Origin: Chromera velia
Lineage: Eukaryota
Direction: 5' to 3'
DNA length: 64,000 nucleotides
Assembly: GCA_018398765.1 (NCBI GenBank)
Contig: JAHBMJ010000046.1
Location: forward strand, 62,001 to 126,000
In this document: positions 12,976 to 64,000 of the stretch, one piece after another
Position numbering within the stretch: the stretch's first letter is position 1
Layout of the letters: every line of letters begins with the position of its first letter
Made by a program: the position numbers and the translations under genes
Notes under the pieces: generated by a model
What the model saw: the letters and a program-made list of their open reading frames with translations, nothing else
Told to the model about the DNA's origin: nothing
The model's database searches: none

Positions 12976-14334
12976 TCATTCCCCCTTTTGAGCCTTCAAG
13001 CGATTCGACCGCCTAGGTTCTCCTGTCGACCTGCTATCCGGGCCTTTCCTCCTCCTCTTTCCCTTTCCAAACACGCTCTTGAAATCCTCCAATGCCAGAG
13101 GGGCGAGAACTGTCACAGCAATAAAGCCAAGCGCTGCGAGGGACTGAAAGAGCCCAGTCCACCCGTACACATCTGCAATCCACGCTGTGAGAAATCCCTG
13201 AAGGATCGCACCCAGACTTCCCATTCCATTTACCAAACCACAGGCTGTACCAACAGCCTGGTTCATTTTATTCCTCTCACACACATCCGTTGTGGCTGCC
13301 CCTCCCAGAACAGAGTCGGGGCCTGCCACCATGAACCCCACAAGAAACATCACACCCATGTTCAAGTGGACCCCGCCCCGACTTGCTGGCCCGTACATAG
13401 CTGACAGAATTCCCGTCAATGCGCACATGGGGGCAACCACAATGATTTTCTTTCCATCGAACAGTCGATCGGCAACGATTCCGCAAACCACAGACCCCAA
13501 CGCCCCCCCAATGTCAAACAAAGTAGACATCAACCCAGCAGTCGCAGCGTCATACTCCAACACCTTACTCAAATAGTAAGGAAGCCAGAACATGAGGGTA
13601 TAACGAACAAGTTTCACACAAAAGTATCCAAATCCCAAAGCCATCAGCCCTGGGATCTTCAGAGTCTCTCCAAACGAGGCAGGCGCCGCTTTCTCTTTTT
13701 CTTTCTTTTTCGTCTCCCCCACACCCCCACCTTTCTTTGCTGCCTCTTCCCCCCCAGTAGACGGGCCTGCGTCAGGCAGACCGAGCAGGAGCGCCACAGA
13801 GCAAGCAAGGACCCACACAGCGGGCCAGAAGAAAGCCGACCTCCATCCAAACCTCGAAAGGAGAAACGCGGCTATTGCTGTTGAACCTGCCCCCCCAACC
13901 TGCTGGCACGTGGTCCAGAGGCCCATCACAGAGCCCCTCTCAGACGCGTCAAACCAGGGATTCAGGGCCTTCACCATCATGGGGAAACACCCCGCCTGCG
14001 TCAATCCGTTCAAACTCCACAACGCGACGAGGAACGTCAAGTTTGCGCTCATTCCGAAAAACAACGTGGTCACAGCAGACCCCAGAAAGCTCAACACAAG
14101 CGTTGGTCTGGCACCAAAGCGGTCGCCTATCGGACCAATCAAAAACTGTCCGACGGCATATGCAGAGAGGAAACCTGTATCAACGGCTCCCAGGCTCTGC
14201 TTGGAGATTCGTAAGTCCGTCTCCATTGCGGCTTTCACCACCGAGAACGGCTTTCGGGTGAAGTAGATGGATGCGTACGTGACGTATGTCAACGCGAACA
14301 CCACCCAACGATACATGGACTTCTGAGGAGCCAT
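12976..14334 (-). CDS. Intronless MFS transporter, organophosphate:Pi antiporter (GlpT/UhpT/SLC37-like) family
   Basis: 452-aa ORF with ~12 hydrophobic segments. Motifs: YFTRKPFSVVK, GPIGDRFGAR, ERGSVMGLWTTCQQVGG, KLVRYTLMFWLPYYL, GPDSVLGG, GTACGLVNGMGSLG. Confidence 0.9.
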   Translation of the reverse strand: MAPQKSMYRWVVFALTYVTYASIYFTRKPFSVVKAAMETDLRISKQSLGAVDTGFLSAYAVGQFLIGPIGDRFGARPTLVLSFLGSAVTTLFFGMSANLTFLVALWSLNGLTQAGCFPMMVKALNPWFDASERGSVMGLWTTCQQVGGAGSTAIAAFLLSRFGWRSAFFWPAVWVLACSVALLLGLPDAGPSTGGEEAAKKGGGVGETKKKEKEKAAPASFGETLKIPGLMALGFGYFCVKLVRYTLMFWLPYYLSKVLEYDAATAGLMSTLFDIGGALGSVVCGIVADRLFDGKKIIVVAPMCALTGILSAMYGPASRGGVHLNMGVMFLVGFMVAGPDSVLGGAATTDVCERNKMNQAVGTACGLVNGMGSLGAILQGFLTAWIADVYGWTGLFQSLAALGFIAVTVLAPLALEDFKSVFGKGKRRRKGPDSRSTGEPRRSNRLKAQKGE

Positions 14335-14924
14335 TTTTCAAAGGTAATCGAGTCCTTGTATTTTTTCTGATGGGTCACTTTCTTTGACTGCACAAACTTG
14401 TTTCTCTTCAATTTCTGGTCTTTCTTCTCTCGAAAGTTCGCTTTTCTGGGTGGTTTGCAAGGTCAGACGCGCAGTACAAATGCGAGTGGACCCTGTCGTT
14501 ATTTTTCCCCATCTGCTAGAAGGACGCTCCTGTTGATCTCGCGGAGATCTGTGTATCTTGCACGTCGATCGCTTTATTCATATAGATTCGTTTCGAGATG
14601 TTTCGAGTGGTGCGCGCACGGAGACGGCATGAGACGGCCATGCAGACCCGCGGAGACGGCATGCATGCTTGTGTAGACGGCTTGCAAGCGTGCAGCCATG
14701 TGCAGCCTCATGATGCAGTGACGAAAAGAGGAGGTCGACCCTTCATGAGTGCATGGCCGAAACTCTTGCAAATCGTGCAATATGATCGATCATTGCGTAC
14801 GTACGCTACGTACGAGCAGGTGTGTAGGTGTCTGCTGGGGCATTTTTGTCGGACGGGTCTGTTTTCGACATCAAATTTCACAACGTACGAGACGGGTCTC
14901 TTCACAAGGCTCAGGCGAAGGCAG
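14335..14924. promoter_or_regulatory. Putative bidirectional promoter with clustered GAGACGG and TGCATGC motifs
   Basis: Lies between divergent ATGs. At 14621-14668: gagacggcatgagacggccatgcagacccgcggagacggcatgcatgc. Confidence 0.5.
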
Positions 14925-17900
14925 ATGCTCTTCCCACTTCCAGGAAGTATTTGCCGTTTGAGCTGGAGGGGGTCATCAGGTAGCCACTTCCTACGACGCT
15001 CCACACGCTCACCATCGTCCCTCCATATGAGGGGTTCGGGGGCACGAGGATTCGCCAGCAGCGATAGCTCCCAGTATATGAGAGAACGACAGGTACTGGC
15101 ACCTTCCCTCCACGGCCCTCATGAGATGGGGCGCGGCCTGTTGGCGCCGGCCAGGCGTGCAGCAGTAATCTCCCACGGAGGACGAGGAGGCTTTCCGATC
15201 ACTGAGCAGCTGTGGTCTGCGGCAGCGAAGGCGGGGGAGCTCGGAGACGGCGGTCTGAAATCTGCGTGTGCGAATGCCGTCTCCGTCTCCGCAGTCTCGT
15301 GGAGTGAAGGAGACGGCAGCTTCAAAAGAGGTGTCATAGAGGGGAGGGTGTTAGAGGGGGGTGGGACTCAAGTGTATCCCCACTGTTCGCTAAGGGATCG
15401 TGTTTTCATTTCTCATGCATTTACAGGCAGGGAGTTCGGCCCCGCACAGGCCTTCCATGGCTCCACGCTCTTGGTAGACGCCACCTTTTTTTTCTCGTCG
15501 GCTCCCTCCCCTGGAGACGGCAGCGCTGTGATTCTCCCCGTCTCTTTTGAGAGGCTGCAGAGTGTGCTTAGAAACGGTGTTGAGTCTGTGCGTCGATGCA
15601 ATTTGGATCGCGACCTTCCGAAAGCCCAGGGGGAAAACACAACGATTGAGTGGATGTCGAAGTATCTGTGGGAGGAGATTGTGAGCAGTTGGAATCAAAG
15701 AGAGGCTCCAGAGTGCAAAGAGACGGGGCAGCACTTGGCAGCCCTCTCTGTTGTGATACACGAATCGGACTTGGTCTTCGCGTCTTATGCAAAGGCAATG
15801 GAGGGCGCGTCTGAGACCTTGGAAAAGATAGCAGGCTCCTCGGACTCTAGGAAGATTCGACCCCCTTCGTGTCTGTCAAGCTTTTTGAGAGGCCCCTTTG
15901 GTCTCACCGTGAAAGACCGCGCGCTTGTCGCAAGAGAGACGGCCGAGGGGGGGGGCAAGGAGGGAGCAACTCTCCTTGTTTCTGCATCATTCTTTGCAGA
16001 GAGGCTTAGAGGTACTGGGGAAAGTGAAAGTAAAATTGAAGGGATGGGAGGGCCTCCGCTGAATTTTGTGATTGATGTTGGAGAAGCTTTTTCGTATTTG
16101 CGCAAGACCCTGACTCGTTTTGACTACTCTGATCTCTCGACGCTCCCTCCTTTCCGTGAAAGTGCCGCAGGATGTGCAGAAAGAGTGGGGCTGCAGTCAG
16201 ACTCCTCTGTTGCCCGTTTGGTCTGGGAGTCATTAGTTGAAGAGATGGGGGGGGTGGAAAGTGAAACTTTGAGCGGAATCTCAGGGGTTTCTGTTGAGGT
16301 TGCAGTGTCTGATTTGGAGTCTGCACGTTATTTTGGTTCCCTTTGTTTGGGAGAAAAGTCAAAGCCTGCTGCTGGGGGTCTGCCTGCAAACATTGAAAAT
16401 GTTGTTGTGGACACCGAGGGTTTGCTTCGGATATTACATGAATCTGAGAGAGGGGAAAGAAGGGAAGATTTGACTGGGTGGACCCCCTCGTCCAGTGCCG
16501 CACCCCTGTCACTTCTCCTCAAAGTTCTGGACCGATTACAGCGAGACGCAGGAATTCGTTTGTCGAGTTGGGTCCCGACAGAGTCGAAAATTTCACTTTT
16601 AGAAAGTCGAGAACGTTGGTTGGAGAGACTGGGGAAGTGCGACTCTTCAGTAAAGCAAACAGCCTGCCGTCTGTTCAGTGAGGAGTGGGAAGGAACCAGG
16701 AGGGCACCGGATGCGGACACGCTTTTTGTTCGTGCAGCAGGACCGGATCATGTAGAATCATCGGGAGATGGTCTGACTTTTTCTGTGTCCACTCTGAAGG
16801 ACCTGCAGGCTCTTTCTGCTTGGCTGGCAGGGGCAGTTGCCCCCCCTCCACATCTGTCGGGGGCTATAGACAGACTTGAGGGCGAGAGGTGGACCCTAGA
16901 ACCTCACGTTTATCTTGAGGCGAAAGCAAAGACGGACGCACACGCTTTCAATGAGGACGTATGGGATCGATTTACGGGAGAGATTAGGGGTGCAGAGTTG
17001 GGGCCTCTGGGGGTTCTCCGCGGAGGGGAGGGGGAAGAGAAAGAGGCTGTGGAAGGCTTTGCGGTTCTCGATGTTGGTGCGGGCAGGCTGTCAATGTTTT
17101 CGCGTCTTTCTGCGGTTTGGGGCTCTTTGCAGACAAAGGGAAGGGGGGATGTGCTGCTCTATGTCGCAGTTGAGAGAGACGAAAATACCGCAAAGGTAAG
17201 CAGCAAAGGGATTGCGAATCTGTGAGGGTGAGTGACACGAGAAGTCCAAAAATATGCTTTCTCCCTGGAAAACAAACGCTGTGCTGGTTGCTCCCCCCTC
17301 GTTCTTCATTTTTGCCTCTTCGATCCCCACGATTTCTCTGCGTTTATTCATCCACCAAAAGACTTCTCAAACTCCAACTTTACCTCCACTGCTGTTGTTT
17401 TTTCTTTCAGGCGGCATGCGACTTTCTGGGATCCCTACCGGGAGTCAAGGAGGGCGGCTGGCAGTTTGAGGGGGGAGAGATGTCAAGGAGCCGTTTGTTT
17501 GAGAAGAGGGACCGAAGAGGCGATACTCTACTGGCAGTAGTCAACAAGAGTGCAGATCAGGTGGCAGAGACTCTCTCTGGATGGAGAAGTCTCGGGAAGG
17601 GGGTCCGAGTTGATGCCGTAGTCGGCTGTTCTGTTGCCGACCTTTTCGGACCGCGTGTTCTTCCCGAAATTCTTAAACGAGCCGCACCAGGTAGGCAGCC
17701 ATGCAGATCGCTCGATGTCTTCTCTTCTGGGTTCATACTACTCGTGTGTGACTGCTCTTGGTTTGTCTTCCTACCCAAACATGGTGCTAAGATCTTCTGT
17801 CTGCAAATCTGCAGTAGCCTCGGCGTTTGGTTTCGCCATTTTGAGGTTTACCCTCAACTGCACTCAGCTCTCCTCACTCACTCACCCACGCTCTCTTTCT

Positions 17901-19942
17901 TTCAATCCGTTTCGTCGATTCCATGAGTGCTCTCTCTCTCTCTCTCTCTCTTTGTGTGTGTGTGTGTGTGTGTGTCCTGCAGGGGCTCTCGTCTACCTTC
18001 CCATCTCCTTTGAGGGCAGGACAGCAAGGGAGCCGGCGTTCGAGGGAGACGGCCTTGTGCCCAGCGATCGGCAGGTGGGAGAATCAAAATGCATTGATTG
18101 ACAAAGGGAAGGGGAGAGTGGAGTCGTACGCGCGTTTTGAGTGTCATATCAGTGGTATCCCTCAACTTATTTTCCTTTCCTTTCCTTTGTTCATGAATTT
18201 GTCCTCTTCCTGTCAGTCCATTCGGCTGGCTGGCCTCTCTGGGAAAACTTCTTTCGTTCGCTTCGCTTCCACCGTTGACTCAATCTGACGCGGTTGGCTT
18301 GCAAGTCGGCTTATTCCGCCTCCTTCTTGCCCCCTTTGTCGCACATTTGGGCACTATACTGCCTTTTGAGTGACTGTTCAAATGGACACCTGCAAATTCT
18401 CTCTCCCGCACTAGCTCTGCAGGTGGCTGCAACCTACCACGCGGCTCTAAAATCGGGAGGGCAGTTCTTCGGGGAGGGCGTCCTGCAAGGGGAGCTGGAG
18501 AAGGCAGGCTTTCAAATCCTAGCGGAAGGTTAGGCGAGGATCATACAAGAGAGAGAGACAAAAAGAAGAAACGAAGGATCCGAAGGAAATTAGAGGCTTT
18601 AGGGGTGCGATTGGCGTTTGAAATATCCCTCTTCTCCAACTCTCTCCGCAGTTTTGTTGATTGGCTTTCTCAACAGTGTATCGGGACTTCTTTTGCTCCA
18701 GAAATCAACCCGCATTGGTCGGAATTTGAGATAACTACAGCGGTGCGACTTTTGTTTGTCTCACGTGGATCTTCTGACATTGACCGATCCGTCCATCGTC
18801 CTCTGTCTGTCTTTTGTCTTGCCTGATTGCCTGTCTCCCTCTGCTCCCTTCATTGCGTTGATTACTGCAGGAGAGTCTCCTTGGAGGGTAGAGACAGATG
18901 TGAACCCTGAGATGTGCAGGGCTTTGACGCATTTTGTTGGGATGTCTGTGGGACCGCAGCTGTTTGCAGAGGGGTGGGACTTTGTGGGCTGGCTCTCAGC
19001 GCACGCAGATGGGAGCTCGTGCTCGTCGTTTGTGATTGCCAACAGAGACGTCCTTGCAAGGGCTCCGGCAGGTTGGTGGAAGGAGAGATAACAACTCGCA
19101 CATGGGCAGAGGGAGCATCATGAAGCGGCGTTATTGGAAGTAATTTCAATGTTGAATCGAGCTTGAAATCTTCGATAGTCATATGATTCATTTCTTCTTT
19201 CTTATACTTTGTTATGGACAGAAATTGCGATAATCAGCCAAGAGAAAATGCCGATTGATTGATGTGGGTGCAGAATCAGAAGGGGGGCATAAAGCTGTGG
19301 TCTTCACTGGACCCCGGCAGGTCTCCGTTGGGCCCCCGCCGGCCCCGGCAACTGAGGTTCTCGAGCACGACGAGGTCTGTCTTTCTGTGTGTGGGGGTGG
19401 CTACGTCTGTGGTGCTGTTTTTCAGCTGCTGGTGCTCCGAGTTGTGCTTCTTTCGTAGGGAACATTCTTGGACTTCTACTTCTTTTTTTTTCCGTTTTTA
19501 TTTCAACTTCTGTTCCCTCTTGATGAATACTCCCAGTGTCAATTACTTCAAACAGAGAAAGCAAGATGCGAGCAAGCAAACAGACAAGTAAGCAGACAGA
19601 TGCAGCTAGACACAAATAAATAAGGTCATTTTGGCCCTCCGTTGGGTCCATCCCTTTCCGTTCTGTGCAGTTTGAGGCTGTGGCAGAGGCGTCGTGTATC
19701 AGCAGCGGCACCGAGATGAACGTCTTTAGGGGAGAGATCGACAACGAAGGTGCTGCTTGGAAGTTGGACGAGACGATCAAGGGGTTGGATGCGGAGACGG
19801 GTGGAGAGGGGGGAAGTGCGTGGCCTGTTTCTTATGGATATTGTTGGACAGGCAGAGTCGTTCGGTCAGCACTCATTTCATGTGACGTCACAGGAAGTAG
19901 TCACCTTGACCCTCTTTCTTCATGGGTCCCGCGCGCTGCACC

Positions 19943-20009
<67 letters not shown>

Positions 20010-22090
20010 TGCGTGCGTCTTCCCGTCATCCATTTTCTAAACAACGCCAGAATTGTCTGACATCCGACGCAGTCGACATTGAGTGCTTTTCCCTGCAATG
20101 GCCCGTTCCTCTGCAATGTCCAACGAATTCTCTTGTGAGATAAGTAAGCAGCAGAGTTTTGGATCTGACATGTTGTTTTTCCTTGTCTTTCCACGTAATC
20201 TCTTTTCTCCCTCTCTGTCTCCTCTGACTGCTCTCTTCTCTCTCTTCGCTCCATGCAGAAGAGGTCGCGGAGTTTCTGAGGACCTTCTTGGCAAGCGCGT
20301 CTTCGTCTTCGCGCCTCACGGAAACAAAGCCAGAGCGCGTGGCCCAATTCTCTTGTCATCACTGCACCGGGAGAGCGACAGAGTGGGAATGGGAGAAGGA
20401 GACAAAGGAGGGTCTGGAGAAGGATTGACAGGGAGGCAGTGGGGGGCCCTGGAGATCCCCGAAGGTCTCTCCTTCGAGGACGCTTGCTTCCTTCCGGCAG
20501 CAGAGACGGCAGTCTCGTTTGCACAGGTGAAGAGGAAGAGGGTGGCGGATATCTTTTTCCTTTTCATTGGTCCGAACGTTTTTGTTTCGTTGCCCAGGAG
20601 ATGGCATTGAAATTTCCCTTCAATTGGATCGAATTTCTCTCTTCATCCCGCTAGTCCTTTTTTGGTGTCTCTGTGGCGTGTTTCTCGTTGCTGCTTTTTG
20701 AGCCTCAGCTCTCCTCTCGGCTTTCGAGTCATACATCGCTGGCAATTTCCCTTTTTGTGTTACGATGCAGGACGCGTCTCTGCTCCCCGGAGAGAATGTC
20801 GCTGTAGTGGGTGGAGGAGTAGTTGGAGCACTGACGGTTGCCGCCCTGAAACGTTCCGTCGGAGGTGCCGTTGGGTCCCGGGTGAGATGCGTGGAGCCAC
20901 AGGAGAGACGCAGACGTGTTGCCAGGGCCTGTGGAGCAGATGAGTGCCTGAGTCCGACAGAGTCTGTCTATCCCTCACGGCCGTTTGATGTCGTGATTGA
21001 AGTTTCGGGGCGGACAGAGGGACTCGGCTGGGCCCTACGTCATACAGCAAAGGGGGGAAGGGTCGTGATGGGTTCTTGGTATCCTTCGGGGAGGGGAGCT
21101 GGGAGGGGGGCAACAGAGGCTCCTCAGCTGCCTTTGGGTATTCCAGACGTCCATCGTTCGCATTTGACTTTGAAGGTCCGTTTTCAGTGAGGCAGCCGTC
21201 CATAGTCTTTTCTCCCCGCTCGGGGGCGACTGCGTTCTCTCTCGTCTTTCCTCTTCTTTCCTTTGCTTTTCTGCTTCCGGGAAGGGGGGCCGTGTAGGCT
21301 GTGCGCTGTACAGACTGGTCAGGGACATCTACCATTCAAGAATTTGTCGAGCCAAGTCAGGCAATATAGATCGCTTTATTCAACGCCTGTCAGCGAGTGG
21401 GTGGAGTAGTATTTTTGCGTGTGGATGTCGGCATCAACTAGCCGCATGGAGGGACCAGGCTTCACTTTTCTGTTATTTCTTTGTTGGTTTCTCCTGATTT
21501 TTAGTGAAATACGCTGAATGCGCCCGAGCTCTGTACGCATGTTTATTCGTGTTTCTTCACGAGTGTGCATGCAAATCGTTTGTTCCATTTCTTGTGTGAT
21601 GGATCGATCGGGCCTTCCTGCCTGCCTGCGTGTCTGTCTTGAGTCGCGTAGCCGACAGCTGTTCTTAATTCATGCACCTGTCGGGTCCAGGTGGTATGCA
21701 CATCGGCACTCAGCCGTACAAACCAGTCTGAGACCAATGCGACGATCAACCCAAAGTCTTCGGAGACGGCAGCCATTGATGAGCAAAGTGCGTGTGGCGG
21801 TATCAAAAAATGCCGACCGGCCTCCCTGCCGTCCCCCCCTTTGCGGCTGTGTGCAGTTCTCCCAAGTCTCCGAGATACCTCCTGGTCTTGGAGGTGGGGT
21901 GTGGAGGTGGACGAAGGAACGACGGTTCAACCTGGCATGGCGGCTTCTTCTTGATTTGAAGCCGGCGTCCGTATTCTCCAACGAAGGGGCACTTGCAAGG
22001 GCGTCCTTTGAGGATGCAGCGAAGGCTTATGAAGCGGTAGACAAGGGAGGGGTAGAAGCTCCTGTCGCGTCCCTTTTTTTCTACACGTGA
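14925..22090 (+). CDS. 10-exon ~1383-aa fusion: presequence + 2x PTPS/QueD-like (T-fold) + HAD-like remnant + class I SAM methyltransferase + MDR (Zn-ADH-like) dehydrogenase
   Basis: Exons 14925-17195, 17411-17690, 17983-18074, 18423-18528, 18871-19071, 19274-19374, 19671-19864, 20259-20526, 20771-21175, 21857-22090 are all GT-AG, phase-consistent and total 4152 nt. Motifs: RDRVFISHAF..FGPAQAFHGSTLLVDATF; YLEAKAKTD..VLDVGAGR; SCISSGTE, YGY, VVGGGVVG, DVVIEVSG, GSWY, SQVS. Confidence 0.85.
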
Positions 22091-23119
22091 GGCCTTTGAT
22101 TCTCAGCAGCCCGGCAACTTAACGTGGCAAGGCTCGAATTCAGTAATCCAAGTTCCGCGTATCGACCCTTTTGACAGTCATGGTGGTTTATACTACTAGC
22201 ATTAATCTGCCATTAATTAAGTTTAAATTGTAATCGATAGGTATCGATCCAGGTATCGATAGGGCAAATGTACATAGATGTCATTAGGTGAAAATCAATC
22301 TTGCTTTTATTTGTATGTGAGCTGGCTTTTTAAGTAAATGAATCGATTTGTTCTTAATTAGATGTGTTCTTTTATCAGTCTTCACAGTGTATAGCATAAA
22401 AAATTAACTTGTAAGTTGTAATAAAAGCAGGTTAAATTTCCTGCCAGTGGGGATTAATTTAGGAATTAATTCAGTGAAATTTAAGGAAAATTATATATGG
22501 AATGTAAAAGTTAGTTTGAAGGACTTTAGTCTAGACTTTAGAAACAATATCGACTTTAGTATAGTTTTAAGTAGAATTTGCTCTTTTGGGTCGGCAAAAT
22601 TTACCATATTAACTCATATCCAGATCTATATTGTAACTATTATAGTTATAAGCCGATATCTGGGAGTAGACCACAGGAATTTTTGAAACATAAAATCCTA
22701 TGCTTAGTAGTATGCTATCCTGTATATATGTAGAAACCACTCCTAGTTTAGTTCCTAATGCTATAGATGGATGCATGCAGTACAAAAAATTAATTGAAAA
22801 AAATAATTCTGGTCAAAGCTAGTTTACTAAATTTAGCCTAACTAGCGTCATTCCTGCGTCAAGTTCTGTTAAAACTTTAGAGATTGAGATATAAGTTGAG
22901 ATATCAGTTTATGACTAGACGTATGACAACTTTAGATCGACATGACTTCAAAATTGATGACAAGTCTAGTGACAAGTGTGGTGACAATCCTGAAGGCTAG
23001 TCCTGAATTAAGGGCCATTCCAGGCTTTTCTCTTCCTTCTTCATTAATGCTTGTGTTATTTCTTCCTCTTCTGCCGCCTTTTGCTTCTTGCCTCTTGTCA
23101 CACATCTGTTACTGCCTGC

Positions 23120-23790
23120 ATCTGTAGTCACACGCACGCCATTCGAGCACCCCTCTCTACTGTACTATCGATATAGTACTTCTCCTTTCCGCCTAGCTAG
23201 AACCTTGACGCCGCACCAAGTCATATCGAGCCATCTGAGCATGCGTGTGACAACATGCACGAAACCTACATGTAGAAGAAAGAAAAACGAAAGACAAACG
23301 AGAGGCACAAACAAAGAAAGAAGCGAATCAAACGCGACTTACAAAAGCCAGAGAGGCCGTCGGCATTTGGTGCTCTCGAGACTGGACGAAACTGGAACCA
23401 CTCAGATAGTTATCGGAGAGCTCCCCCCTCCACGCAGACGATTTCCAAAAGAAAAAGGATTTCAGGGGGAAACGACGGCCGGCGCTTTCCGCCGTGACGC
23501 CATCAGACAGTCAGACAGGCAGGCAGATAGTCGGTCAGTCACTCAAAAGACTTGCAGGAAGCACCAAAGCAGCACAGAATGAAGCGATGACTTGTGTGCT
23601 TTTCGCTGAAAGTGTTTTTGAATTTATCACGCTTCTGATTTTCTTTTTCGTCATTGTGTTCCTTGCTCTGCTTTTCCTGCAATTGTGTTTTCCCATCAAA
23701 GATTCAACAGACCGACTGAGAGATGGGAACAAGAGACAGACAAATTAAGAGACACGAAGGCAAGCAGGCAAAGAGACAGGTAGACCAACA
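23120..23790 (+). repeat. Left arm of diverged long inverted repeat (partner 29480-30150)
   Basis: Blocks such as cgacttacaaaagccagagaggccgtcggc, ccacgcagacgatttccaaa, acggccggcgctttccgccgtgacgcc and acttgcaggaagcaccaaagcagcac..aatgaagcgatgactt match the reverse complement of 29600-29900. Confidence 0.85.
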
Positions 23791-24158: not shown

Positions 24159-26110
24159 TCAGCGCTGTTCCCACCCCGTGACGAGACACTGGCGCAGAGT
24201 ATCGCAGTGCACATTGGGGAAGCTGGCCGCAACTCCAGTGAAACGAAGGTGAGACCAGTTCGGCAAGGAGAGGGCGACACTACATCCTCTAACGACGTTG
24301 TGATATTCTTTCGACTTCTCTTTCCTCTCACAGGAATCCCAGAAAACCTTTCCACTGATGCTGAGGAATCCGAGCTCGACGTGTGAGGAGGAAAGGTAGA
24401 CGGCGTTGGAGAGGGTGATCTTGTCGGTATGAACGAATTCCTTCTGCCCGTCAGGCTGTGCTTGTTCCAAGCGCTGAACGATCGAAAGGACCTTCAGATC
24501 GCTCATTCGGACCTGCAGACAGGATCGAGAACAAGTTCACCATGATGACACACATAAGACAATTGAGGAGAGACAGCAAGCTCGCCATTTTGTGTTCCGT
24601 CTCTTCGTTGGCAAACAGGATCAGTCTAAAATCAGATCAAGTGGGCGAAGCGCGTGTCCTTGCCGGCCTCGAAAAAAGGGGTTTCCCAGCTGGATTGTTA
24701 ACATAGAAGAAAGCAACAAAAAAGAGAGAAGTCTCCGTACCTTCAGATTCGCACAAGGCTTCGCAGGGACTTGCTTTGAGACCGGAGAGTGCTGCATGCC
24801 GGTCACGCAGACGGAAATGAGGAAACAGCCGTAGTCTTCCTCGCTCAGGGTTCTTGGGGCCCGGTAGGGAAGAACGCGAGCTTTCAAACGGGACTCGCCG
24901 TGAAGGAAGATGTCGAAAGCTTGGTTCGCGTTCACGGCAGTACGAATCGTCTCGTAGCGTGACAAGACTTGCAGAGGACGTTGAGCGGGCGGTTGGAGTG
25001 TTCTCTGAAGCTTGCAGGCTTCAAGAGGACACTGGGGGTAGACGCCTTCGACCATGTACAGCTCGTACTGGCGGGCAAGAACGGGCTTCTTCGCCAGCAG
25101 GCGCTGCTTCAGGTTGGCATCCACATCCAGGTGATCGATCATGCGATGATGACACCAGAGGTGCTCACCGACAAGAAGCAGCGGGTCGTGCTCGCCGCCC
25201 CCGATGGTGTACTGCGTTTCGATGGACGCCACCTTCTTCTGCGTAGAGCAGAAGGCCTCGTAGTGACCTTGCACCGACTGTTCACTCCCCGCAGCGCCTG
25301 CGCTGAAAAGACCCTCAATGCTGATGCCCCCTCCAGCATCATTTCTGCGTCCCTGCACCTGTCTGCTAGTGAAGGCTGCACCCTCAGTCTGCTGCAGACC
25401 GAGTTTGTAGTGTCTGTCCAGAGAGCCGCAATGGCCTCCCATGGGCACGTGCGTACCGATGATCTCAGAGAAGGCCTTTCTGTAGGCTGGATGGAGAGTA
25501 TTCGGATTCGAAGGAAACGGAAGAGAGTCCAGGGTCTCGACGTAGAAATTGGAAGGAGTCACCATCAGACGGCGTGCTTCCGAGGTGTCTGGAATCAACT
25601 CGGCCTTGACAACCAGGGTCTGCTTCTTCGACGCTGTTTGGACGAAAGAATGGAGAAGGGTGCGGGACCTGGTGTTGGTCATGCTCTCAGAGGCTGCTGC
25701 AGAGGCGGCGAGGGAGAGACCGTCAAGAGAAATCCCCATTCCTCCTGAAGAAGAGCTGACCATGTTCTCCATGTCAGTCACGGTCTTCTGTGAGAAGTCC
25801 TGGATCTCTCTGAAGGTGCTGACGGTATCTGTGAACGCCTTTCTCGTGTCGTAGAAGGTGCCTCCAGGAGGGAAAAATTGTCCCCTTCCCTGCACTCAAG
25901 AATACCGACACAGACAACCAGTAAGTGCGTCTGATCGCATCGTTAAATGCACATCCCTCCTGAAGACCACGCGCAGTCTTTGAGCATTTTTTCGCACCTT
26001 TCCATGTTTTTCTCTGTCTGAACGTTCTATCTGATTCTCCAAGCGGTCTGTACTTCCCCTTTTCCGTACACTCAGTCGGAAATTTTCTGGCAGGATGGCA
26101 ACGAAAACAC

Positions 26111-26190
<80 letters not shown>

Positions 26191-63220: not shown

Positions 63221-63739
63221 TCAGTGTGAAAGAGGAGACGGGAAGTGCAAATAGATCGGCTCACAATGGTTCCCCTCCGAACGCTCGGACTCGCCCTGTG
63301 TGTCCTCCTCCAAGAACTCGCAGGAGGGCGTGCATTTTCTGCTTCCACGTTCGATGTGCTGTCTTCTGCTCATGGGACAGACAGATGGGCAAAAAGACGA
63401 GGAAGTCCTCGTCCTCGCGGAAGTAGACGGGGACTGGGTCAAAGTTTGTTTGCCGCAGTTCTCCCGCAAGAGAGAGGAGACGCTTCTGTGCACGGCGTAG
63501 ATAGCACCTTCGATATATTTTCTTCTTTCCTCCGTCGCAAGCAGGCTGAGATTTTGAACAAGCTGGAGGAAGTCGACGGGAAGGGAAAGTTCGTTCGAGA
63601 GCCCTGGTCTCAAGAGGAGACGGGAAGCGAAGGGTTGACGGCTGTTCTTGAGGGAGGCGATGTTATCGAAAAAGGTGCGTGTTCGACTTCTTTCATCAAG
63701 GGCGTACTCAGCGTCGATCGAGCGAGGGCCATGAAGCAA
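63221..63739 (-). CDS. Possible exon(s) of a gene extending past the window end
   Basis: 172-aa ORF with protein-like composition (FFDNIASLKNSRQPF...KYIEGAIYAVH). No family recognised. Confidence 0.35.
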   Translation of the reverse strand: MLHGPRSIDAEYALDERSRTRTFFDNIASLKNSRQPFASRLLLRPGLSNELSLPVDFLQLVQNLSLLATEERRKYIEGAIYAVHRSVSSLLRENCGKQTLTQSPSTSARTRTSSSFCPSVCPMSRRQHIERGSRKCTPSCEFLEEDTQGESERSEGNHCEPIYLHFPSPLSH

Positions 63740-64000
63740 CGAAAAGGGGCAGATGGGTGGGACTTGAAGGGGGGAGAGACCTACAGAGCTGCTGCGTTGT
63801 CACTTGTCTTTCATTCTCGCTCTCCCCTTGTACCGACATTCCGTGCCGACGTGCGTTACTTTGAGGTGGAAGGCAAACCTGGTTGGTTTGGAGGAGGGGC
63901 TGATCTGACACCCTACTATCTTTTTGACGACGATGTTAGGGAGTTTCATGGTTTTTGGAAAGAGGTCTGCAATCGGTTCTCCCCTCGCTCCTTCCCGGTT

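What the first reader, a model, noticed from the sequence alone, without database searches (positions are those of the whole stretch)
14925..22090. A prokaryotic orphan 'PTPS-like + methyltransferase + MDR dehydrogenase' operon fused into one spliced eukaryotic gene
Seen: ten phase-consistent exons join a PTPS/QueD-like domain (RDRVFISHAF...FGPAQAFHGSTLLVDATF...NTTIEWMSKYL...VVIHESDLVFASY), a SAM methyltransferase (YLEAKAKTDAHAFN, VLDVGAG, YLPISFEGRT, GESPWRV) and a BchC-like MDR dehydrogenase (ISSGTE, YGY, FAPH, ETAV, GSWY, HRSHLTLKFSQVS, RWTKERR). Known, from my recollection: these same subfamilies (the COG0720 'PTPS-IV' type) are neighbouring genes in actinobacterial, proteobacterial and haloarchaeal clusters with GTP cyclohydrolase II-like and glycosyltransferase genes, and their product is unknown. 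Inference: horizontal acquisition followed by fusion and intron gain. This is Rosetta-stone evidence that the enzymes act in one uncharacterised pathway operating in a eukaryote.
Basis: partly seen in the sequence, partly recalled or inferred. Interest (0 to 1): 0.85.

Follow-up and report, generated by a model that had tools for sequence, protein, structure and literature searches.

The report
Algal fusion of orphan GTP pathway
This spliced gene of the alga Chromera joins relatives of three enzymes from an unsolved bacterial operon into one protein; related fusions occur in diatoms, brown algae and dinoflagellates, which suggests that many algae run a still undescribed pathway that likely turns GTP into a methylated pterin-like compound.

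Summary
Ten exons give a 1383-aa protein; from Met52 on it is identical to a Chromera velia UniRef entry. Probable-RNA contigs support all nine introns, and overlapping spliced contigs link PTPS to methyltransferase (MT) to dehydrogenase (MDR). Prokaryotic relatives sit in a ribA-ribD_C-MDR-PTPS-GT4-MT operon of unknown product, which this scan has already reported on other DNA at least eight times. The eukaryotic side is new. PTPS-(PTPS)-(HAD)-MT-MDR or HAD-MT-MDR fusions occur in Vitrella, dinoflagellates, diatoms, brown algae, Nannochloropsis and Triparma, MT-MDR in a diplonemid, and a red alga has the stand-alone MDR. One unnamed, probably eukaryotic protein fuses PTPSx3-MDR-RibA-RibD_C. 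So the fusion is old and shared, not specific to Chromera. It is also mosaic: its PTPS matches the FGPAQ operon subtype, its MT and MDR the other subtype. Best reading: the late steps of a soluble GTP -> DARP -> ribityl-pyrimidine -> methylated pterin-like pathway (chemistry inferred, untested). My ten literature searches found no report of the algal fusion.

The parts
14925..17195 (+). Exon 1 (757 codons): leader, PTPS-IV copy 1, PTPS copy 2, middle region, start of the methyltransferase
   Evidence: contig cover from 14757 with breaks at about 15339-15368 and, in X1-X3, 16993-17050; X4 bridges the second
14925..15077 (+). First 51 codons, absent from the UniRef model; Ser/Arg-rich, nearly no acidic residues, no hydrophobic stretch: possible mitochondrial presequence (inferred from composition only)
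   Evidence: transcript contigs start upstream at 14757-14787
15384..15800 (+). PTPS-IV (COG0720 T-fold) copy 1, keeping ISHAF His, FGPAQ, FHG His, TTIE Glu and HES
15891..16343 (+). PTPS copy 2, degenerate (both His, the TTE Glu and HES lost); likely a structural copy
   Evidence: second Pfam stretch; BLAST to operon PTPS E 5e-6 to 2e-5; alignment; no PDB sequence hit alone
16371..16892 (+). Middle region at the place of the HAD phosphatase of related fusions; probably a decayed HAD domain (inferred from position, a TGW motif and relatives)
   Evidence: four-sequence group profile vs HAD profile: probability 90, E 1.5e-6, score 46 against at most 15.5 in 30 shuffles; the Chromera sequence alone gives no hit; register; fold inconclusive
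16893..19070 (+). Class I SAM-dependent methyltransferase-like domain (exons 1-5), DVGAG motif; 18 of 18 family-conserved residues kept
19288..22087 (+). MDR dehydrogenase/reductase of the BchC-like kind without the zinc-binding GHE motif (ISSGTE, YGY), exons 6-10; 57 of 61 family-conserved residues kept
   Evidence: fold of relative P0007 matches MDRs, Z 32.1, rmsd 2.7, 307 aligned
17411..17690 (+). Exon 2
17983..18074 (+). Exon 3
18423..18528 (+). Exon 4
18871..19071 (+). Exon 5 (end of MT)
19274..19374 (+). Exon 6 (start of MDR)
19671..19864 (+). Exon 7
20259..20526 (+). Exon 8
20771..21175 (+). Exon 9 (Rossmann GGGVVG motif)
21857..22090 (+). Exon 10 with TGA stop

Best explanation
This is a spliced Chromera gene for a PTPS-IV / PTPS / middle region / methyltransferase / dehydrogenase polyprotein, one of an old family of algal fusions, that likely carries out the later steps of a GTP-derived pathway whose product is predicted to be a soluble, methylated pterin-like or ribityl-pyrimidine compound. 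Proposed order, all chemistry inferred: a GTP cyclohydrolase II opens GTP to DARP (2,5-diamino-6-ribosylamino-pyrimidinone 5'-phosphate). A reductase-only RibD_C gives the ribityl compound without deamination, so the 2-amino-4-oxo face that T-fold proteins bind is kept. The zinc-free MDR likely oxidises a ribityl hydroxyl with NAD+; oxidation at C2' would give the ketose that closes onto the 5-amino group as a dihydroneopterin-type ring. PTPS-IV likely assists ring closure or remodels the side chain. The HAD domain (intact in most relatives, probably dead in Chromera) would remove the 5'-phosphate, and the MT would methylate the product. Prokaryotes add a GT4 sugar and often membrane steps; no eukaryotic fusion seen here carries a GT4. 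RibA and RibD_C would be supplied by separate genes in Chromera (not tested).
For: Shown: gene structure and splicing. Shown: of 80 GTDB loci chosen by MDR, 65 have PTPS, 65 GT4, 57 RibD_C, 53 RibA, 43 MT and 20 CDP-alcohol transferase within up to 8 kb, many loci cut short by contig ends. Of 30 metagenome loci of 8 kb or more (of 80 fetched by FGPAQ PTPS), 30 have MDR, GT4 and MT, 27 RibD_C, 19 RibA. The RibA passes the NCBIfam cut-off and the RibD is the C-terminal reductase only; 79 of 84 RibA ORFs keep Tyr at the position recalled as marking DARP-forming enzymes. Among 212 fetched proteins of 445 aa or more: 121 HAD-MT-MDR, 5 PTPS-HAD-MT-MDR, 3 PTPS-PTPS-MT-MDR, 2 PTPS-PTPS-HAD-MT-MDR, 2 RibD-MDR, and one cluster of two PTPS(x3)-MDR-RibA-RibD_C; none has a GT4 (near-duplicates and fragments included). 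The HAD is of the nucleotide 5'-phosphatase kind (TIGR01993 E 5e-28, below cut-off; XMP phosphatase 7ef6 E 3e-17), with DxD in 127 of 135 full copies. Chromera keeps 18 of 18 MT and 57 of 61 MDR conserved residues.
Against: No substrate, product or activity was tested, and no solved structure is close to the MT. The PTPS-IV third zinc His and catalytic Cys of canonical PTPS are absent, so its reaction is open. RibA/RibD partners in Chromera could not be sought (no genome). The organism of the PTPS-MDR-RibA-RibD protein P0167 is unnamed; it is taken as eukaryotic from its tree position and leader. PTPS is missing from most fusions fetched (121 HAD-MT-MDR), and no separate PTPS gene was shown in those organisms. 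Between-strain differences in the coding sequence are 12 non-synonymous to 7 synonymous, which shows no clear purifying selection (small sample; no stop or frameshift). The HAD reading for Chromera rests on relatives, not on its own sequence or fold.
Confidence: 0.5

Rival explanations
1. The pathway uses the pyrimidine only as a carrier: the ribityl chain is oxidised, cleaved off by the T-fold protein, dephosphorylated and methylated to a small polyol or amino-polyol (an osmolyte in algae, a lipid or envelope head group in prokaryotes).
For: Prokaryotic loci often add a CDP-alcohol phosphatidyltransferase (20 of 80), a flippase-like membrane protein (24 loci) and sulfatase-like genes. The nearest MDR folds are polyol and sugar-acid dehydrogenases. 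Some COG0720 members cleave side chains (PMC5041015 passages).
Against: Spending GTP to obtain a five-carbon chain is costly (inference). Polyol dehydrogenases are simply the commonest MDR structures, and identity is only 17-23%.
Confidence: 0.2
2. The domains serve a known cofactor route by another path, for example a precursor for F420/Fo or riboflavin, or a GTP cyclohydrolase I bypass feeding folate or biopterin.
For: A review states that PTPS-IV is involved in archaeal F420 synthesis, citing unpublished work (PMC5041015). RibA plus reductase-first RibD_C is the archaeal/fungal riboflavin order (TIGR01508 hit below cut-off). PMC5445326 reports a GTP cyclohydrolase in the PTPS-IV neighbourhood.
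Against: MT and GT4 are near-constant partners (30 of 30 long loci) and have no place in these routes (recalled). The operon occurs in alpha- and gammaproteobacteria, not known F420 makers (recalled).
Confidence: 0.15
3. In Chromera the polyprotein is partly a relic: MT and MDR still act (perhaps in repair or detoxification of a damaged nucleotide or flavin precursor), while PTPS copy 2 and the HAD region have decayed, so the full pathway no longer runs.
For: PTPS copy 2 and the middle region are degenerate. The Chromera branch is long. Strain differences are 12 non-synonymous to 7 synonymous.
Against: PTPS copy 1, MT and MDR keep their conserved residues. The same two-copy PTPS layout with a degenerate second copy is kept in Vitrella and three unnamed fusions.
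Confidence: 0.12
4. One reading: one bacterial operon was transferred into the Chromera lineage and fused there.
For: Domains have clustered prokaryotic relatives. Monophyly of the eukaryotic rows is only weakly supported (83-90, unstarred).
Against: The MT-MDR order is shared with ochrophytes, dinoflagellates and a diplonemid. Eukaryote MT profile scores are 59-109 bits on 41 Chloroflexi/archaea-type loci against 4-37 on 51 FGPAQ-type loci, whereas Chromera PTPS scores 48-75 on FGPAQ-type against 0-18. 0 of 65 MDR-selected GTDB loci have an FGPAQ PTPS.
Confidence: 0.03

Closest known systems
Streptomyces coelicolor SCO6650 (PDB 3D7J), COG0720 subfamily PTPS-IV, and its SCO6650-SCO6655-type cluster
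   Same: Nearest solved structure to copy 1 (E 9.4e-14); FGPAQ signature; same MDR, MT partners in a Streptomyces plasmid copy.
   Different: Here fused, duplicated and spliced; no GT4, creatininase or membrane genes in the fusion or found in the window; a HAD region is added; MT and MDR belong to the other operon subtype.
Prokaryotic ribA-ribD_C-MDR-PTPS-GT4-MT operon of Chloroflexota, Desulfobacterota and archaea (orphan; earlier scan notes)
   Same: Closest MT (YLxAK type) and MDR.
   Different: Its PTPS lacks FGPAQ (0 of 65); separate genes in a different order; often membrane-linked genes.
Algal HAD-MT-MDR proteins (Skeletonema, Thalassiosira, Seminavis, Ectocarpus, Pylaiella, Nannochloropsis, Triparma, Symbiodinium) and PTPS-HAD-MT-MDR of Polarella; databases call them hypothetical, alcohol dehydrogenase, tdh or BchC
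   Same: Same MT-MDR core and order, 32-41% identity.
   Different: Intact HAD; most lack PTPS; 76 of 100 leaders have a hydrophobic signal-like stretch, whereas the Chromera leader has none.
BchC (TIGR01202), bacteriochlorophyllide hydroxyethyl dehydrogenase
   Same: Best NCBIfam match to the MDR; BchC is recalled as also lacking the canonical zinc motif.
   Different: 39.8 bits against a cut-off of 291; no bacteriochlorophyll context.
Early riboflavin steps in archaeal/fungal order (GTP cyclohydrolase II, then Rib7/ArfC reductase); toxoflavin ToxA/B/E route as a recalled analogue
   Same: RibA plus RibD-type reductase plus a methyltransferase diverting GTP to a heterocycle.
   Different: No deaminase domain, and PTPS-IV, MDR and HAD partners instead; analogy recalled, not tested.

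Membership tests
PTPS-IV (COG0720) | FGPAQ signature | tested here: met
   Copy 1 reads REFGPAQAFHG; signature from PMC5445326 passages. Copy 2 lacks it.
PTPS-IV (COG0720) | PF01242 above gathering score, nearest to SCO6650 | tested here: met
   37.1 bits vs 22.4; 3d7j E 9.4e-14
PTPS-IV (COG0720) | Association with GTP cyclohydrolase, MDR, GT4, MT genes | tested here: inconclusive
   Met for prokaryotic relatives and by fusion for MDR and MT; RibA and GT4 are not in the window and no genome was available
Canonical PTPS-I/II/III (QueD, biopterin, folate) | CxxxHGH, CxxxxxHGH or ExxHGH motif | tested here: not met
   No Cys/Glu-HGH motif in either copy (motifs from PMC5041015); no NCBIfam QueD/PTPS hit
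Class I SAM-dependent methyltransferase | Glycine-rich DxGxG motif and acidic residue after strand 2 | tested here: met
   VLDVGAG and YVAVERD; DxGxG in 174 of 179 family copies; Atlas feature hits 0.96-0.97; no Pfam MT hit for P0001 itself
Class I SAM-dependent methyltransferase | SAM-dependent methyl transfer | not testable with these tools
   needs an assay
Zinc-dependent MDR alcohol dehydrogenase | Catalytic zinc ligands (Cys of CxSD, His of GHE) | tested here: not met
   ISSGTE and YGY instead; GHE in 2 of 215 family copies, YGY/FGY in 215 of 215
MDR superfamily | GroES-like plus Rossmann fold | tested here: met
   ADH_zinc_N and weak ADH_N; model of relative P0007 matches MDRs at Z 32.1, rmsd 2.7, 307 aligned
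BchC (TIGR01202) | Score above equivalog cut-off | tested here: not met
   39.8 vs 291.25 bits
HAD phosphatase (pyrimidine 5'-nucleotidase type) | DxD motif I and detectable homology in the Chromera middle region | tested here: inconclusive
   VVDTEG in place of DxD; no hit alone; group profile hit E 1.5e-6; low-confidence model. Intact in relatives
Single captured bacterial operon | All domains closest to one operon subtype | tested here: not met
   PTPS matches FGPAQ subtype, MT and MDR the other subtype; sampling limited to 165 loci

The most novel reading that the evidence does not exclude
Red algae and the algae with red-derived plastids (diatoms, brown algae, eustigmatophytes, dinoflagellates, chromerids) share an ancient, undescribed GTP-derived pathway (RibA, RibD_C, zinc-free MDR, PTPS-IV, HAD, MT), assembled from two bacterial operon subtypes into shuffled polyproteins, that makes an unknown methylated pterin-like metabolite by a GTP cyclohydrolase I-independent route.
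Probability: 0.35. Interest if true: 0.88.

Novelty: new variant of a known kind. Interest (0 to 1): 0.72.

Why it matters
The PTPS-IV operon has been an orphan for over a decade, and its glycosyltransferase and membrane genes obscure the core chemistry. The algal fusions keep six soluble activities (RibA, RibD_C, MDR, PTPS-IV, HAD, MT) and, in what was fetched, drop the GT4, which marks out the likely minimal pathway and adds a phosphatase step. They put the question in tractable hosts (Nannochloropsis, Thalassiosira, Ectocarpus), where one knockout plus metabolomics could name the product. If the pathway runs, major marine primary producers make an unrecognised GTP-derived metabolite, and many database labels (BchC, tdh, PTPS) on these proteins are wrong.

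Tried and rejected
No whole genome is held, so RibA, RibD_C and GT4 partners in Chromera were sought only in the window: tblastn of the operon proteins found only MDR and PTPS, and Pfam on 60 other long frames found a kinesin and a coproporphyrinogen oxidase but no pathway gene. No listed run is on record as RNA; the contigs are treated as RNA because they lack the introns. A word-index search with the whole protein found only Triparma and understated the family; HMMER on representatives found it. The Chromera middle region gave no Atlas hit, no hit alone to the HAD profile, a model with mean pLDDT 63 and mostly under 50 in that region, and no fold match: no verdict from structure. Fold searches of the P0007 model were filled by the MDR domain, so the MT and HAD folds were not tested. 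The GT4 of the operon is not specifically close to tetrahydrobiopterin glucosyltransferase (E 8e-9, rank 13-14 among generic GT4s). The recalled idea that creatininase goes only with Met-type RibA failed: 11 of 12 creatininase loci have Tyr-type RibA. Joining the red-algal MDR clade to the fusions is neither shown nor rejected (support 18). An RGG motif in ochrophyte leaders (34 of 100 vs 2 expected) could not be tied to a published targeting signal. No complex prediction was run. Literature: ten full-text searches found no report of the algal fusion or of the operon's product. The COG0720 paper of Phillips 2012 and the SCO6650 structure paper were not held. I saw term passages only of PMC5445326, PMC5041015, PMC7190310, PMC2705460, PMC5462543 and PMC3774753, and no supplements; HGT or fusion-gene supplement tables could list these proteins.


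Full report
Gene model. From Met52 the product is identical to P0001, a 1332-aa UniRef entry for Chromera velia. Five runs, guessed to be RNA and kept as contigs, hold parts of the stretch; four were laid in each of two calls. Joints match 8 of 9 introns, and intron 2 appears as contiguous record coordinates in 4 of 4 runs. An X4 contig runs from PTPS copy 1 through introns 1-2 into the MT, and ~1.7-kb contigs in X1-X3 run from the MT into the MDR exons. No contig spans the whole gene, but PTPS and the MT start also share one open exon. Three of these runs come from one study; a second study (X5) supports introns 8 and 9 only.

Domains. Pfam finds two PTPS stretches and an MDR cofactor domain. 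The nearest solved structure is SCO6650 (3d7j, E 9.4e-14). Copy 1 keeps the His, FGPAQ, His, Glu and HES residues of PTPS-IV; copy 2 has lost them. The MT has a DVGAG motif, Atlas feature hits to class I methyltransferases and 18 of 18 residues conserved across fusions and prokaryotic relatives. The MDR has ISSGTE and YGY in place of the zinc ligands, as does the family, keeps 57 of 61 conserved residues and scores far below the BchC cut-off. Between PTPS and MT lie about 175 residues where relatives carry a HAD phosphatase. A profile of this region from four tandem-PTPS fusions matches the HAD profile (probability 90, E 1.5e-6; 30 column shuffles reach at most 15.5 against 46), but Chromera alone does not, and its model is too poor to decide. 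I read it as a decayed HAD, by inference.

Prokaryotic context. tblastn against plasmids hit 33 records. The five I opened all show MDR, PTPS, GT4 and MT together; three add RibA, three add RibD-family genes. In 80 GTDB loci chosen by MDR, neighbours within up to 8 kb were PTPS 65, GT4 65, RibD_C 57, RibA 53, MT 43 and CDP-alcohol transferase 20, usually in the order ribA-ribD_C-MDR-PTPS-GT4-MT; many loci are cut by contig ends. In 80 metagenome loci chosen by FGPAQ PTPS, the 30 of 8 kb or more all had MDR, GT4 and MT, 27 RibD_C and 19 RibA. No HAD of the algal type was found in any of 165 loci. The scan's earlier notes report this operon in at least eight other windows with no known product; they report no eukaryotic version.

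Eukaryotic spread. HMMER against 1.84 billion representatives returned many long fusions. Named ones: Vitrella (PTPS-PTPS-x-MT-MDR), Polarella (PTPS-HAD-MT-MDR within a longer, possibly merged model), Symbiodinium, Skeletonema, Thalassiosira, Conticribra, Mediolabrus, Mayamaea, Entomoneis, Seminavis, Pylaiella, Ectocarpus, Nannochloropsis, Triparma and Chrysoparadoxa (HAD-MT-MDR), the diplonemid Namystynia (x-MT-MDR), and a stand-alone MDR in the red alga Gracilaria. Of 212 fetched proteins of 445 aa or more, near-duplicates and fragments included, 121 are HAD-MT-MDR and 12 have one to three PTPS copies ahead of MT-MDR; none has a GT4. Unnamed P0167 is PTPSx3-MDR-RibA-RibD_C and P0176 is RibD_C-MDR; both fall among the eukaryotic rows, P0176 in the starred dinoflagellate clade. 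The HAD is of the nucleotide 5'-phosphatase kind. In MDR trees all named fusions fall in one group without labelled prokaryotes, but support is unstarred: 90 in FastTree on 230 rows after dropping 14 near-duplicates, 83 in IQ-TREE on a 76-row subset. The Gracilaria clade is starred, and its link to the fusions is unresolved. An old shared origin is therefore likely; the donor and the route, possibly through red-algal endosymbiosis, are not shown.

Mosaic. Two operon subtypes exist: FGPAQ PTPS with WLxLRE-type MT (actinobacteria, proteobacteria), and non-FGPAQ PTPS with YLxAK-type MT (Chloroflexota, Desulfobacterota, archaea). Chromera's PTPS scores 48-75 bits on the first and 0-18 on the second; its MDR 28-74 against 92-165; a eukaryote MT profile 4-37 against 59-109. 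The PTPS and MDR contrasts are partly built in by how loci were chosen; the MT contrast is not. No sampled locus combines the two (0 of 65 MDR-selected loci have FGPAQ). Either two sources were combined or the donor was not sampled.

Mechanism. Shown: the same six activities are linked by operon and by fusion. Inferred from established chemistry (recalled): RibA gives DARP; a reductase-only RibD gives the ribityl compound with its 2-amino-4-oxo face intact, which T-fold proteins bind; an NAD+-dependent oxidation at ribityl C2' would give the ketose that cyclises to a dihydroneopterin-type ring; PTPS-IV, the phosphatase and the MT would finish a methylated pterin-like product, to which prokaryotes add a sugar. 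I give this 0.5. Rivals are a polyol product (0.2), a known cofactor by another path (0.15; a review cites unpublished work tying PTPS-IV to F420), a partial relic in Chromera (0.12; strain differences are 12 non-synonymous to 7 synonymous) and a Chromera-specific operon capture (0.03).

Targeting, by composition only: 76 of 100 leaders ahead of a HAD domain have a hydrophobic stretch and 34 have RGG against 2 expected; leaders of Chromera and seven other fusions I picked (six non-HAD-first types and Namystynia) are basic, poor in acidic residues and look mitochondrial. No predictor was run.

Verdict. A real gene and a real fusion; a new variant of the known but unsolved PTPS-IV system. The bacterial operon is old news, while its presence as shuffled polyproteins across algae was not found in ten literature searches, with two key papers not readable and supplements unseen. 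Interest 0.72.

Noticed in passing
window 12976-14337, minus strand: Intronless MFS transporter gene (PF07690 E 7e-54) transcribed divergently about 590 nt upstream of the fusion gene; it looks like a sugar-phosphate/phosphate antiporter type (recalled). Link to the pathway untested.
   Followed up: partly
window 63230-64000 (+); 46411-47506 (-): Coproporphyrinogen III oxidase (E 1e-43) and kinesin motor exons.
   Followed up: no
P0167 / P0063: Unnamed 1366-aa protein joining three PTPS copies, the MDR, GTP cyclohydrolase II and RibD_C: a one-chain candidate for the early pathway and a good enzyme to assay.
   Followed up: partly
leaders of HAD-MT-MDR proteins, e.g. P0207, P0225, P0244, P0255: Signal-like peptide followed by an RGG motif in 34 of 100 leaders against 2 expected; no paper found that explains it.
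   Followed up: partly
P0152 (Vitrella) residues about 1200-1330: A stretch of the MDR cofactor domain is repeated almost exactly, probably an assembly or gene-model duplication.
   Followed up: no
L008, L054, L071, L079 and P0113: Euryarchaeal loci fuse RibA to the MDR; many Chloroflexota fuse RibA to RibD_C.
   Followed up: no
window 22950-23500: Start of a 4.3-kb contig covered in three runs just downstream; no Pfam hit in the long frames at 24624-27509.
   Followed up: no
PMC7190310: The paper reports a 'BchC' gene transferred from alphaproteobacteria to two Phytophthora species; it may be the FGPAQ-operon MDR, not checked.
   Followed up: no
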